Source: Podarcis tiliguerta (lineage: Eukaryota). Taken from it: 64,000 nt of DNA. This document shows, piece by piece, positions 14,988 through 20,900 of this stretch. Where the stretch lies: the NCBI GenBank assembly GCA_965153285.1, contig OZ229112.1; one strand, given 5' to 3'. The position numbers are program-made. Each line of letters begins with the position of its first letter. Within the stretch, counting starts at the first letter, position 1.

Positions 14988-17900
14988 TTAACGGTTGCCA
15001 TTAATTTGATTTTAATTAATTTTTATAATGAAATGTTTTTAGAATGTTGGATTATTTGATTGTTCGATTATTTTATTGTTGTTAGCCGCCCTGAGCCCAG
15101 CTTCGGCAGGGGAGGGCGGGATATAAATAAAATTTATTATTATTATTATTATTATCATTATCCCGCAATTTGATCGCTTTGTCAAGTGCCTCCCATTGTT
15201 CCTTTCTGTATAGGAATTTCTTGAGTTTTAGCGTGTTTTTATAATGAGAGCGCCACCTGTGCAGGTTTTCTATTGAGGACAGGGTCCCTTCCTGTTTTAC
15301 TTTATTTTGTAATTTCCTAAGCAAAGATCTTAGATTCCTACAGTCTTTGTCGAACCAGGTCCTCGAGTTGTTTAATTGTTTGGGAGGATTGGAGCTCGTA
15401 AGTAGTGGGAAGAGCGACTCTGAGACCTGCTGAAATATTGAAAAGGGATCAGAATTAGATAAAATACACTGGTCTCTCAAGGCCAGTAAGTCTGATGAAT
15501 GCAGGTGTTGTTTGATTTTAAAATCCAGGTCGCTGTTCCATTTACGTCTACGAAGGGCCAGAGTTAGAGGTGGGTCTGCACAGTGATTGCGGCATTGCGG
15601 GTCCTCCAAACCACGGGGAATTAGTGAAATTGATATAGGAAGATGATCACTCTCAATTCTATTGAAAGTGCTGAAGCCCTGTGACCTCTCCAAGAGTTTT
15701 GGGGAGACCAGGATATAATCAATAACGCTCGCACCTCTAGGCCCAAGAAAAGAAAAGAAACCCCCTGACCTGTCCATATGAGTACCATGCAAATTATACA
15801 AATTATGTTTGAAGGCAGTCTCCATTAATGTAATGCCTGCCTTATTCAAGACCTTGTCGTCAGAGGACCAGGGAATAAACCAATCTGCCTCTGGCAGGAA
15901 CTGAGATTTAGAGCAGTACGTATTAATGTTATTTCCTATCCTAGCGTTGAAATCACCTGCCAGCAGGATATCCATGCCAGGGAGTTCTAGTTCAGCCTTC
16001 TCCAAACATAGCTCTAAATCTTCCCAGATTTGTAACGAATGGGGAGGGGAGCCTATGGGAGGGATATATAAATTAAAGCAGAGAAAATCTCCTCCTTCCC
16101 TGCTAGAAACAAGTAAGATTTGTAAATTGTTACTTTTCACCCACTGCTGTTGCCGGGCCTTGCACTTTAGCTTAGTCGATATAAAAGTGACTAAACCACC
16201 ACTAGGTCGGCCTCGGGTATTTGATTTTAACGCGGGGGTAACAAAGGCTTCGTATCCCTGTAGAGAAGGGGCATGGAGATCTAAACACCACGTCTCCTGT
16301 AGACATATGATCTGAAATTTTGTAAGGAAATCCAGAAGGTCGACATCGCCCTGCTTAGATAGCCATCCCGCCACATTCCAAGATAGAATGTGGAAATAGG
16401 GTGATGGTGGAAATAGTGGCAGTCAATCTCTTTTCCGGTGGTTTGAGGCTCCTAAGTTGGGCTCCTCCTCTTTCTGCCCTGCTTGGTGGTTCCAGGTTTG
16501 AGGTCGCTGGACCCTAGGTAAGTGTGATGGCTTTAACCGAGGGGCCAGTTGGTTGATATGTCCCAGAGGATCTTCGATGGCATCGTTGCCGATATGATGT
16601 TCAGCAGGTTTTTGGAGAGCAAGGGTTTTGCCGACCCGTATAGTCTGTACAGGTAGCAGGTCAACAGCTGTATCTTGCGTCGGTACTGTTAGTGGGTCAA
16701 AAATTGACAAAAGCTGTGGATCTTGGTTGCGTATTGGGCTTGGAATAATGGAAGCCTCCAGTTCCGGCATCGAGGCATATGAGGTCGAGAGCATTTCAGA
16801 CTGGTCTTGCTTGGGTAGTCCAATGTCAGGCTCGTTGCACGTAGAGGCCAAGGTACCAAGCGGGGGGTGTAGGAAATCAATTAAGTCATTTGCGGGCAGG
16901 CTTGCCACTCCCTGTGGGGTAATAGATTTGCCCTTATTTGGGGTCCCCGGCTCCATTCCCCTGTCTATTTGTTCTTTGTGGCGCACAGGCCCAGCATCGT
17001 CACAGACAGCACCTGTCCTGGTGCGTAGTGGTGTACGGGTCAGGTTAGTGAATACCCTTGTGAAATAAATGTGCCATTTCCTTGTATGGTTTCTTAGTTT
17101 TAGAATCTTTGCAACGAGATGGGCAGATCTAAAGTTAATAACCATACGTCTCATGTAAGGTCCAGAAGGCAGCCATGTGATATCCGCGATATCTGCGCGG
17201 CGAAGTGCCTGCCCCAGCAGTTGGGTCAGGGAATTTATGACCGAATGTTTATCCGCCCATTTATTATAATTCAAGGGGTGGTTTCCCACCAGTACTGCAA
17301 GTTTGCTGGTCTGGAGTTGCAAACTTAAGTTTTGTACTTGGTTGGGCAGGCATCTCACTTGTTTTTGTGCAAGGTTGGCCTGCACACTTGGGCAGGGGTG
17401 TGCAGAGTTTACAGTGTTGTTAAGCTGAGGAAGTGAGGGGAGGCAGCGGAACAAGCCAAAAACATTTTCAAGCTTCTTTTCGATCCCATCCAGCCTTTTA
17501 TATAAGTTGGTGATGGTGTGTGTTATCAGCTCAGTCTGGCAAATTAGCAGTTCCAGTACCTCACGGTCCTTATTTAACTGGGCTGGTGGCTGGGATAGTT
17601 CAGGTGAAGTTTTTTGCAGGGACTCAAGAGTCTGTTCCCTCTGTTCCTTCATACACAGGCTCGAGGCTAGTTGTGGGCCATCCACAATGCCGGCAGGCTC
17701 CTCATGAGTAGTACTGGGAGCAAGAGCCTCATAACTGTTTGCTGTAGGGAAATTTCTACAGATCTCATTTAGGTCATTGTCAGGCAAGAAGTCCCTGATA
17801 TTTGTCTGTTTTTTGGCAGCACTCGTAGCTTCATTAGAAAGCTGCCTGCAGCGTTTCTTCCCTCTCATATCAGCAAGAAAATAGGGAGGGAATTTCTCAG

Positions 17901-20900
17901 AACTGCAGGTCAGGGCAGGTTGTGCTGTTAATGAGCCCTGCTCCCTTTAACAGTCTTTAACTTCCGCGTTTTCTTGAAAATTTATGAGAAAAGTAAAGAT
18001 AATCTGATCCATAAAACCATAGACTTCTAAAATAAACGCCTTAAGGCATCTTAGAGCCTTTAGGACCCGTCAAGGCAGATAGTCAAAACAAAGCTTTACC
18101 GGGCGTGGGACAAGGCTGCCGTTCACGTCGCCATCTTGATCCTCCTTATTATCATTATCATTATTATTACCATATCATTTAGCAGTTTGTGGGGGGCGGC
18201 GGCAGTGCTTACACTTGTATGGTTATTATTTTTTCTATGCATCTCAAACCAACATGTTGCCATTTTAAGATGTAACCTCCATTTTGGAGAGTGGGAAAGC
18301 TCTTTGTCTGTCCGTGTTTGTTTGAGCTATTAGCCTGTCAGAAGCAAATTTGTGGGATTTGTATTACTTTCTTCTGTAGCTGCATGTAATACTGTGTTGA
18401 TATTGCAAGTACCACATGGGAATTCTTAGCTAACTGGTCTAATGGGGGGAGGGGAGAATTCTGTTTCCTCTCTATGTCCTTATTCCTGCTTAGATAACTG
18501 TATATTAAGCACCTTTGTAGTAGGTGTTACGTGTCTGACCAGCACAGCCACAGATTGTGCAGTGCCACTCTGGGTGGTTTTCTTCTAAATATTATGCAAG
18601 AGTTAGTTGTTGGCCTCCATTGCTCTTGAGGGACAATGGAAGAGTCCACCACTGAGGGTTAAGTCAAACTGTTGGAGAGTTACAGTGCCAGCTGTAGCTG
18701 CTGAGACTGATACAGCAGAGACATATCTTATTGCAGCTGGGGCAAATGAAGGCATCCAGTTTTGCTGTTATGGATGCACCATAGCATTTCTTCTCTCTGG
18801 GCTACTCCCAGAAGTCATTCCTTCTGTGGCCATTGATGTGGATACACAACCTGACTGTCTCCAGGCACTGTGGTCATCTGCAAGGAATTTCCACGGCAAG
18901 GTTGGTGTTGCCTTCATTTCACATTTGCAGACATCTTTATAAGCAGAGTTGGTCTGCCAACAGGCATGGTGCCTCAAGCCAACTCCCCGTAAAGCACATC
19001 CTTGGGGATCCTGCCATCTGCCACTCTGTGTACATGACCAAGCCAGCTTAGACATCTCTGAGACATAAGTGCGAACATACTGGGAATGTGAGCTTGGAAG
19101 AGCACATCTTTGTTTGAGACTCTGTCCTACCATGTGCTGCCCAAAATCTTCCTGATGCAGCACATACGGAAGGCATTGAGGCGTTGCTCCTGGCGGGTAG
19201 TGAGTCATTGCCTATGACTCATTTCCATAAAGCAGCATGCTCAGCACACAAGCCTGGTAGATCTTCATCTTGGGAGTTGTTAGCATCACATTCCTCCATA
19301 CCCTTTTGGAAAGATGAGCCATTGCCTTCACTACCTTGCCAATATGCTTGTACAGCTCAGTGTCAATGGAAGTTGCTGGTTATGCTACAGCCCAGGTAGA
19401 CAAAATTGTCAACCACCTTAAGCATGTGGTCACCCATGCTGCTGTGTGGAGTGCTGGCAATATCATGAGCCAAGATGTTGGTCTTCATCAGGCTGATGGT
19501 GAGGCCAAACTCCAAGCAGGCTTGGGCAAAGTGGTTGATGAGTCTCTGTAGAGCTTCCTCAGAGTGTGCTGTGAAGGCTGCGTCATCTGCAAACAACATC
19601 TCTTGGATGAGAACCACTGCACATTTGTCTTGGTGTGGAGACATGCCAGATGGAACAGACCCCTGTCGCTTCTTGAATGGAAGCACATACCATCTTCAGT
19701 CAAACTGAAGGCATATCAGAGCAATAGAGAGAAGAATATTCCAAAGAGACCCACTGAAATTAGGGTTAAGGTAAAGGGACCCCTGACCATTAGGTCCAGT
19801 CGTGGCCAACTCTGGGGTTGCGGCGCTCATCTCGCTTTATTGGCTGAGGGAGCCGGCGTACAGCTTCCGGGTCATGTGGCTAGCACGACTAAGGATCCAT
19901 TAATTTCAGTGGGCCTTCTCTGAGTAAAACTTAGTTGACTACCACCCTGTGACACTGGAGTCTCTATTCATCATGTTTCATGCATATCTGGTATCCTTCT
20001 CTCACGCATATGATTCCTTTGAACTTAACAAGAGCCAGTATGGTGTAGTGGTTAAGAGCGGTAGTCACGTAATCTGGGGAACCGGGTTCACGTCTCCGCT
20101 CCTCCACATGCAGCAGCTGGGTGAGCTTGGGCTAGTCACACTTCTTTGAAGTCTCCCAGCCTCACTCACCTCACAGAGTGTTTGTTGTGGGGGAGGAAGG
20201 GGAAGGAGAATGTTAGCCGCTTTGAGACTCCTTCGGGTAACGATGAAGTGGGATACCAAATCCAAACTCTTCTTCTTCCTCCCATCTTTTTTAGGGGGAG
20301 CAACTGCTACCCTGATAGTGATTGCAGAGGTTTTAAGGAACCATGCTCTGTTCCTGACACCTTATCACAGTGTCAGCCTGTTCTGACTAGGACCGATTGA
20401 TCCTCTGTTGAAAAAAACAGGCACATCCAGAAAGCAGGTAACCAAAGAATCTATAAATTGCTCAAACTAATACTTTGTGACTAGTTATTTTAGACGGGGG
20501 TGGCTGGTTTACTGAAATGTTTCAGTAACACAATTTTAAAATGATTTATTTAGCACCTGGATAGGCTCTGGCTTCAGCACGTTTGCTGTTAGCCTTTACG
20601 GCAAAGGGCTGTGCTTCATTTCCCAGCCATGTGTTTGGGAAGCCAATTACAATTCATGTACTTGAAAAGGAAAAACTGCTGTCAGTCTTTACAGATGCAC
20701 GCCTTGCATTTTAAAGAAAAAATCAAGGAGGTCTAGCATAATGCTAGTTTTTCCAAACCATTCATCTTCTTCTACTTTTCCATTACTGTCCCTAGGGTAA
20801 GGAAGCAGCCACCATGTTTTGATGAATAACCTGAGAAATGCTTATACCAGCCTTTCTCAACTTGGTGCCCTCCAGAGGTTTATGGGACTCCAACTCCCAT

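What the first reader, a model, noticed from the sequence alone, without database searches (positions are those of the whole stretch)
15149..18159. Reverse-of-normal LINE insertion: intact 5' end, missing 3' half, no tail, yet a perfect 14-bp TSD
Seen: the element begins GGAGGATCAAGATGGCG and stops abruptly mid-ORF2 (...AIKLR), before any RT motif. TTATTATCATTATC is duplicated on both sides. Known: target-primed reverse transcription normally leaves 5'-truncated, tailed copies, like the BovB, CR1 and L2 copies here. Inference: reverse transcription was primed internally, possibly via microhomology to the (TAA/TGA)n target, or the template was a prematurely processed RNA. A later deletion would be unlikely to end exactly at the TSD. 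About 920 stop-free codons suggest a very recent, possibly polymorphic insertion.
Basis: partly seen in the sequence, partly recalled or inferred. Interest (0 to 1): 0.7.

Follow-up and report, generated by a model that had tools for sequence, protein, structure and literature searches.

The report
Front-half lizard LINE copy, real duplication
A young copy of a lizard jumping gene kept its front end but lost its reverse-transcriptase half on arrival, a rare but already described by-product of how such elements copy themselves.

Summary
A 2,983-bp LINE copy lies on the minus strand at 15163-18145. It has a 277-nt leader, an intact 481-codon ORF1, one in-frame stop, and 420 open codons of ORF2 that hold only the endonuclease domain.

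Relatives carry 672-747 more ORF2 residues, including the reverse transcriptase. None of that is anywhere in the window. No tail follows the copy.

The flanking 14-mers are a true target-site duplication, not a microsatellite accident. The copy sits in the (TTA)n tail of an older retroposon. Fourteen is not a multiple of three, and the repeat phase fits only if one 14-mer is a duplicate.

The best explanation is target-primed reverse transcription that started inside the RNA, helped by 2-3 bases of inferred microhomology. The two closest relatives that cover the end point both continue with Asp, which matches the first codon of the 14-mer.

This class is already described for L1 in mammals as 3'-truncated, tailless, duplication-flanked copies, and tailless retrocopies of small RNAs were reported in the green anole. 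The rivals are not excluded: a shortened RNA template, a later microhomology deletion, or priming from the second nick.

The host is probably a lacertid lizard, not human. The LINE clade is unresolved. Interest is modest.

The parts
15149..15162 (.). Left copy of the 14-bp target-site duplication. On the + strand this is the inferred primer end for first-strand cDNA.
15163..18145 (-). LINE copy of 2,983 bp. The 5' end is apparently complete, the 3' part (RT and 3' UTR) is absent, and there is no tail.
17869..18145 (-). 5' untranslated leader of 277 nt. The single window match to AAGATGGCG lies at 18129-18137, nine bases from the element's first base.
   Evidence: The motif has 1 match against 0.17 expected, and 17 of 100 shuffles give at least 1, so the motif alone is weak evidence.
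16423..17868 (-). ORF1, 481 codons plus stop, intact. The model shows a long helix (residues 98-141) and a confident RRM-like domain (181-280). The rest is predicted disordered.
   Evidence: (P0051, 87% identity, full length). No Pfam family.
15163..16422 (-). ORF2 remnant of 420 codons, in the same frame as ORF1. It has one break, a 3' truncation, with 0 stops and 0 frameshifts in the retained part. No ATG of its own lies before the endonuclease domain.
   Evidence: Single unbroken tblastn alignments to P0052 and P0002.
15643..16389 (-). Apurinic-type endonuclease domain of ORF2.
   Evidence: PF03372 E 6.2e-13. PF14529 scores 26.5 bits, just under its cut-off of 27.4. P0002 aligns from 16389.
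18146..18159 (.). Right copy of the 14-bp target-site duplication.
14875..15148 (+). Older, 5'-truncated retroposon whose (TTA)n tail is the target. The tail starts at 15134 and goes on through the left 14-mer. It resumes at 18160 and runs to about 18171 beyond the LINE.
   Evidence: A second copy at 27012..26642 (-) has the same end and a pure (TTA)14 tail. Tandem Repeats Finder rows.

Best explanation
A full-length RNA of an active squamate LINE family was copied into the (TTA)n tail of an older retroposon by target-primed reverse transcription. Copying started inside the RNA, about 124 codons upstream of the RT domain, instead of at the 3' end.

The inferred steps are as follows.
- The + strand was nicked right after the 14-mer.
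- Its T-rich 3' end paired with 2-3 bases (perhaps 5 of 6) of an A-rich stretch of ORF2 RNA.
- The cDNA then ran to the RNA's 5' end.
- A second nick 14 bases away on the other strand gave the duplication.

The product was dead on arrival. It has a leader, an intact ORF1 and an endonuclease-only ORF2, but no RT and no 3' end.

Shown: the anatomy, the true duplication, the loss of the RT part, the absence of a tail, and the signs of youth. Inferred: the nick sites, the pairing, and that the template was full length.
For: - True duplication. The left tract has 9 T(T/C)A units in one phase plus 2 left-over bases. The right tract starts on a unit, and both junctions sit at the same phase (2 mod 3). 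A blunt insertion into a period-3 tract therefore cannot give a 14-base flanking match.
- Uniqueness. There are 2 copies of the 14-mer in the window, and 1 of 60,989 positions has such flanks.
- The tract pre-existed as a retroposon tail. A second copy of that retroposon ends the same way, with (TTA)14.
- Truncation. P0052 (72% identity) and P0001 (45%) align to the very last residue and go on, both with Asp-Asp and then a conserved Phe-Trp.
- Amount missing. Of 88 relatives examined, 38 align to within 9 residues of the end and continue. 24 of those 38 carry 672-747 further residues.
- No RT part of this family lies anywhere in the window, and there is no other copy.
- No tail and no poly(A) signal in the last 100 nt.
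- Youth. The ORFs are intact and CpG observed/expected is 0.50 against 0.29 for the window.
- Precedent. PMC5322556 (passages) describes TSD-flanked, tailless, 3'-truncated copies with target sites complementary to the terminal 2-18 nt, and favours internal priming over truncated RNA.
Against: - The parent's nucleotides beyond the end point were not seen. The microhomology rests on one or two codons read from proteins that are 72% and 45% identical.
- Two to three bases of pairing is weak, and by chance 2 bases match 1 time in 16.
- The family's normal 3' end, tail and nick-site preference are unknown, so it cannot be said that the + strand nick is the enzyme's first nick.
- The element could not be placed in the L1 clade, where internal priming is documented.
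- The 5' end is called complete only from a 277-nt leader and one motif. No second copy was available.
- No read-level evidence for the assembly was available.
Confidence: 0.58

Rival explanations
1. The template RNA was already shortened by cleavage, decay or early termination. Reverse transcription started at its new 3' end, with or without a few paired bases.
For: It gives the same tailless, TSD-flanked product. Nothing separates it from internal priming except the inferred 2-3 base match.
Against: No poly(A) signal in the last 100 nt and no added tail. For 5S and U2 retrocopies, the authors of PMC5322556 found no sign of truncated-RNA intermediates (passages). The Asp codon match is expected under pairing and only 1 in 16 to 1 in 64 by chance.
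Confidence: 0.15
2. A full-length copy was inserted normally with this 14-bp duplication. A later deletion of at least 2.1 kb, joined through the same G-A-T microhomology between ORF2 and the start of the 3' duplicate, removed the RT part, the 3' UTR and the tail.
For: The inferred microhomology would serve end joining or replication slippage as well as priming. Microsatellites are fragile.
Against: The deletion would have to end exactly at the first base of the duplicate and leave all 14 bases perfect. The copy otherwise shows no decay.
Confidence: 0.1
3. Priming came from the second nick, a twin-priming variant. The enzyme's first nick was on the (TAA)n strand. The 3' end freed on the other strand primed inside the RNA, and only that product was kept.
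For: Twin priming is a known variant of TPRT that gives inverted, truncated copies flanked by duplications (PMC2837659, abstract in the search listing only). The target tract would suit a family with a (TTA)n tail such as the resident retroposon.
Against: No directly oriented, tailed 3' piece of this family lies beside the copy or anywhere in the window. The family's tail is unknown.
Confidence: 0.07
4. The structure is an assembly artefact (collapse or false join), or this is one member of a short non-autonomous subfamily whose regular 3' end is here.
For: No reads and no genome were available. Only one copy was seen.
Against: A false join would need shared sequence far longer than the at most 6 bases possible here. 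It would not create a matching 14-mer at the far end, in phase with the microsatellite. There is no N in the window. A subfamily would need a 3' end that an RT can recognise, and none is present.
Confidence: 0.06

Closest known systems
Tailless, 3'-truncated retrocopies made by internal priming of L1 machinery (PMC5322556, passages read, which cites Schmitz et al. 2004). The 'internal priming' paper of Srikanta et al. 2009 is recalled only and was not seen.
   Same: The 5' end is complete, the 3' end is missing, there is no tail and the flanking duplication is perfect. The target is A/T-rich, and the first bases of the duplication can pair with the RNA at the end point. The authors report such forms of L1 itself (90 3'-truncated against 708 full-length in human) and tailless forms in the green anole.
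   Different: Here the source is a squamate LINE that could not be placed in the L1 clade. The pairing is short (2-3 bases inferred, against the 2-18 reported). The target is a trinucleotide repeat rather than the TT/WAAAA-type site they derive.
Endonuclease-independent (non-classical) L1 insertion (PMC1920257, passages read)
   Same: 3' truncation and no poly(A) tail.
   Different: That class is defined by having no duplication of any length, and the authors discarded every locus with one. This copy has a perfect 14-bp duplication.
Twin priming (PMC2837659, abstract in the search listing only)
   Same: Priming inside the RNA by a target 3' end, and a duplication-flanked product.
   Different: Twin priming leaves an inverted 5' piece joined to a direct, tailed 3' piece. 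Here there is no 3' piece.
Type II LINE ORF1 proteins: coiled coil, RRM and C-terminal domain (PMC4120745, passages read)
   Same: ORF1 has a long helix followed by an RRM-like fold. Human L1 ORF1p (2yko_A) is a weak fold match at rank 12, E 4.9e-3.
   Different: There is no Pfam PF02994 match in the query or in 24 relatives. The C-terminal 200 residues are predicted disordered. That paper says type II occurs in the L1, CR1, L2 and R1 clades, so it does not name the clade.

Membership tests
Tailless 3'-truncated retrocopy (internally primed TPRT) | 3' truncation relative to the source RNA | tested here: met
   The end point equals residue 227 of 913 in P0001 and residue 362 of P0052. 24 of the 38 relatives that reach the end point carry 672-747 more residues.
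Tailless 3'-truncated retrocopy (internally primed TPRT) | No tail between the copy and the 3' duplicate | tested here: met
   The duplicate starts at the base after the element's last base. There is no A-run.
Tailless 3'-truncated retrocopy (internally primed TPRT) | Flanking target-site duplication (8-35 nt in PMC5322556) | tested here: met
   14 of 14 bases identical, 2 copies in the window, phase test passed, 1 of 60,989 positions.
Tailless 3'-truncated retrocopy (internally primed TPRT) | Target complementary to the RNA at the end point | tested here: inconclusive
   Asp follows in 2 of 2 relatives of at least 45% identity, which matches the first codon of the 14-mer.
Tailless 3'-truncated retrocopy (internally primed TPRT) | 5' end of the source RNA present | tested here: inconclusive
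   A 277-nt leader and one AAGATGGCG near the first base. No second copy to compare.
L1 clade | ORF1 of the Transposase_22 type (PF02994) | tested here: not met
   0 Pfam families for ORF1 at E up to 10. 0 of 25 aligned members match PF02994. The fold is only coiled coil plus RRM-like.
L1 clade | ORF2 clearly closer to L1 ORF2p than to other LINE reverse transcriptases | tested here: inconclusive
   Relative P0002 scores 92 bits to human L1 ORF2p (RT core only) against 76 bits to an R2 protein. The endonuclease gives only E 0.0016 to an L1 endonuclease variant.
L1 clade | A-rich 3' tail | not testable with these tools
   The 3' end is absent from this copy, and no eukaryotic genome collection was on hand.
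Endonuclease-independent insertion | No target-site duplication | tested here: not met
   A perfect 14-bp duplication is present.
Twin-priming product | Inverted 5' piece next to a direct, tailed 3' piece | tested here: not met
   tblastn with five RT-bearing relatives finds no 3' piece of this family in the window.
Short non-autonomous subfamily (half-LINE type; HAL1 recalled, not seen in a call) | Several copies sharing this 3' end | not testable with these tools
   0 further copies in the window. No host genome to search.

The most novel reading that the evidence does not exclude
The element belongs to a LINE clade outside L1, one whose enzymes are thought to need their own 3' end to start. 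This copy would then show one of two things. Either such an enzyme can start on bare microhomology inside an RNA, or the relaxed L1 machinery of lizards picked up and copied another family's RNA. The product keeps a leader, an intact ORF1 and an endonuclease-only ORF2, so it could still be expressed without being able to copy itself.
Probability: 0.15. Interest if true: 0.55.

Novelty: new member of a known kind. Interest (0 to 1): 0.3.

Why it matters
It is a clean single-locus example of a LINE insertion that started inside its template. The phase of a trinucleotide repeat proves the duplication without needing an empty site.

If the family proves to be non-L1, it would extend relaxed or internal initiation beyond the clade where it is documented. 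As it stands, it is a useful presence/absence marker candidate in a lizard and a caution for annotation. At least one public gene model (P0054) carries pieces of this family.

Tried and rejected
- Other copies in the window. blastn (word 9) and tblastn with both ORFs gave only self hits. RT-bearing relatives gave no 3' piece of this family.
- ORF1 naming. Pfam gave nothing and PDB by sequence gave nothing at E up to 1. The Atlas features search gave a best score of 0.88, below the 0.9 lead level.
- Clade assignment. PDB scores of relatives do not separate L1 from R2 clearly. No named reference set of LINE clades was available, so the clade is left open.
- Rfam. Nothing relevant in or beside the element.
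- Element running on into the flank. I considered that the K-F read in the flank frame might be the relatives' K-F-W. I rejected this because those bases belong to the older retroposon, as its second copy shows.
- LINE and left-hand retroposon as one rearranged insertion. I rejected this because the order and orientation do not fit twin priming, and the duplication lies inside the tail.
- Naming the left-hand retroposon from PMC7983390. No match to the tails given there for lacertids, so it is left unnamed.
- Collections. The bacterial and archaeal genome collection was not used because it cannot hold this host. A genome-wide count of copies therefore stayed unchecked.
- Supplements of the papers were not opened. 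The supplementary tables of PMC5322556 may bear on the counts for the lizard.
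Full report
**What is there.**
The feature is a LINE copy on the minus strand. Its first base is 18145 and its last base is 15163, which makes 2,983 bp. The window has no N.

Read on the minus strand, the copy has four parts:
- a 277-nt leader (18145->17869);
- ORF1 of 481 codons (17868->16426);
- one in-frame TGA;
- 420 further open codons in the same frame, up to the element's end.

The frame then runs 26 codons into the flank before a stop.

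No ATG lies between that stop and the endonuclease domain. A single copy cannot show whether that is the family's normal state.

**What the ORFs are.**
The ORF2 part holds an apurinic-type endonuclease domain. PF03372 matches at E 6.2e-13, and PF14529 scores 26.5 bits, just under its cut-off of 27.4. There is no RT.

ORF1 has no Pfam family, even at E up to 10, and no PDB relative by sequence.
- A full HMMER scan found 24 relatives at E <= 0.001, one of them near-identical: P0051, 87% identical by BLASTP and 90% by HMMER, full length.
- None of the 25 aligned members matches the L1 ORF1 family.
- A model built on that alignment has mean pLDDT 59. It is confident only for a long helix (98-141) and an alpha/beta domain (181-280).
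- That domain resembles RRMs. The best hit is Pes4 RRM3 (E 5.4e-4, TM 0.70 on the target). Human L1 ORF1p (2yko_A) is at rank 12 with E 4.9e-3.

A coiled coil plus RRM is the 'type II' ORF1 layout. PMC4120745 (passages) reports it in the L1, CR1, L2 and R1 clades, so it does not name the clade.

**Host and family.**
The nearest named relatives are from lizards:
- Podarcis muralis (P0001, 45% identity over the last 216 residues);
- a Podarcis lilfordi gene model (P0054) with pieces 55-81% identical;
- Rhineura, Hemicordylus, Phrynocephalus and Anolis at 28-34% identity.

The closest are unnamed records: P0052 for ORF2 (72%) and P0051 for ORF1 (87%). I take the window for a squamate, probably a lacertid, and not for human.

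Relatives' RT regions score 92 bits to human L1 ORF2p and 76 bits to an R2 protein. The endonuclease gives only E 0.0016 to an L1 endonuclease variant. I could not place the family in a clade. It is not clearly L1.

**Is the 3' part really missing?**
P0052 and P0001 align to the very last residue of the copy and then go on. In P0001 the RT domain starts 124 residues later.

Of the 88 relatives examined, 38 align to within 9 residues of the end and continue. 24 of those 38 carry 672-747 more residues. At least about 2.0-2.2 kb of ORF2 plus the 3' UTR is therefore absent.

tblastn with five RT-bearing relatives finds nothing of this family beyond 15163 anywhere in the window. blastn and tblastn with the element itself give only self hits. 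There is no tail, no AATAAA or ATTAAA in the last 100 nt, and no A-run.

In the retained part I count 0 stops and 0 frameshifts in either ORF, based on single unbroken alignments. The only break is the truncation of ORF2.

**Is the 14-mer a real duplication?**
The left flank is the 3' part of an older retroposon on the + strand (14875-15148). It ends in a GC-rich stretch and a (TTA)n tail. A second copy at 27012..26642 (-) ends the same way with a pure (TTA)14. The microsatellite is therefore that element's tail and pre-dates the LINE.

The phase test gives this:
- The left tract has nine T(T/C)A units in one phase and then two left-over bases.
- The right tract begins on a unit.
- The base after each 14-mer sits at the same phase (2 mod 3).

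Because 14 is not a multiple of 3, a blunt insertion into a period-3 tract could give flanking matches of 12 or 15 bases but not 14. Two pre-existing adjacent 14-mers would break the phase. The pieces fit one tract only if one 14-mer is a duplicate.

The 14-mer occurs twice in the window. Only 1 of 60,989 positions has a 2,983-bp segment with such flanks. I did not write out a joined empty site.

**Mechanism.**
With the element on the minus strand, the left 14-mer on the + strand is directly followed by the cDNA-sense strand. The inferred first nick is therefore on the + strand, right after the 14-mer. Its T-rich 3' end served as primer. The second nick lies 14 bases away on the other strand. 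These nick sites are inference.

The two closest relatives that cover the end point both continue with Asp-Asp and then the conserved Phe-Trp. The first flank codon in the window is also an Asp codon. The parent RNA thus very probably continued with G-A-(T/C). That gives 2-3 bases of pairing with the primer's end, and up to 5 of 6 if the second Asp used the commoner of its codons.

PMC5322556 (passages) describes this pattern for 'tailless' retrocopies:
- duplication-flanked and 3'-truncated;
- target sites complementary to the terminal 2-18 nt;
- A-rich internal sites;
- internal priming favoured over truncated RNA.

That paper counts 708 full-length, 90 3'-truncated and 5,593 3'/5'-truncated tailless L1 with duplications in human. 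It names the green anole as the only non-mammal in which tailless forms were found.

**Rivals.**
- A shortened template RNA gives the same product. Only the inferred pairing argues against it.
- A later deletion through the same microhomology is possible. It would have to end exactly at the first base of the duplicate and spare all 14 bases.
- Priming from the second nick (a twin-priming variant) cannot be excluded while the family's nick preference and tail are unknown. No direct 3' piece is present.
- Endonuclease-independent insertion is excluded by its own definition. PMC1920257 (passages) requires the absence of any duplication.
- A false assembly join would not make an in-phase 14-mer at the far end.

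**Age.**
Three signs point to a young copy:
- the ORFs are intact;
- the duplication is perfect;
- CpG observed/expected is 0.50 in the element against 0.29 in the window.

No divergence figure can be given without other copies. Polymorphism is plausible but untested.

**Limits.**
Copy number, other end points, the parent's nucleotides and the family's 3' end stayed unchecked.
- Paper supplements were not opened.
- One ORF elsewhere in the window looks like a receptor exon.

**Verdict.**
The kind of event is already known, so this is a new member of a known kind, of modest interest.

Noticed in passing
window 14875-15162 (+) and 26642-27012 (-): Two 5'-truncated copies of one retroposon family. 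Both end in a GC-rich, hairpin-capable stretch followed by a (TTA)n tail. The second copy has 14 perfect units, and the middle parts of the two copies differ. I could not name the family.
   Followed up: partly
window 16375-16425 (-): ORF1 and ORF2 of the LINE share one reading frame and are separated by a single TGA. No ATG lies before the endonuclease domain. This could mean read-through or re-initiation, or it could be a defect of this copy.
   Followed up: no
window 33857-34149 (+): A stretch 85-96% identical to the last 100 residues of the Podarcis muralis protein P0001. That C-terminal part gives P0001 a second matched stretch against human L1 ORF2p. A different, L1-like LINE remnant probably lies here, and P0001 may be a chimeric model.
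   Followed up: partly
window 19384-19659 (-): A reverse-transcriptase fragment 30% identical to the Anolis protein P0011, just beyond the right flank of the finding. It is a remnant of another LINE.
   Followed up: no
window 56622-57335 (+): A 237-codon ORF whose residues 126-186 match the start of the rhodopsin-type receptor family (PF00001, E 6.6e-11). It is probably an exon of a host receptor gene.
   Followed up: no
window 5570-5627 (-): A tRNA-like match (Rfam RF00005, 40.4 bits) that covers model positions 8-63 only. It may be the head of a SINE. Several short interspersed copies share 14-mers around 98-346, 4837-5022, about 8870-8970 and 50475.
   Followed up: no
window 30686-31169 and 37572-38000 (+): Two copies about 0.48 kb long of one interspersed repeat in direct orientation, with long exact blocks. 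The label was not tested.
   Followed up: no
window 20041-20230 and 22770-22959 (+): Two copies about 190 bp long of a short repeat, 2,729 bases apart, with exact blocks of 15-28 bases.
   Followed up: no
protein P0054 (public gene model, Podarcis lilfordi): This model, named 'Elongator complex protein 5, partial', carries pieces of this LINE's ORF1 and ORF2. It also carries a piece 80% identical to window 55482-55661 (-). It looks like an annotation chimera.
   Followed up: partly
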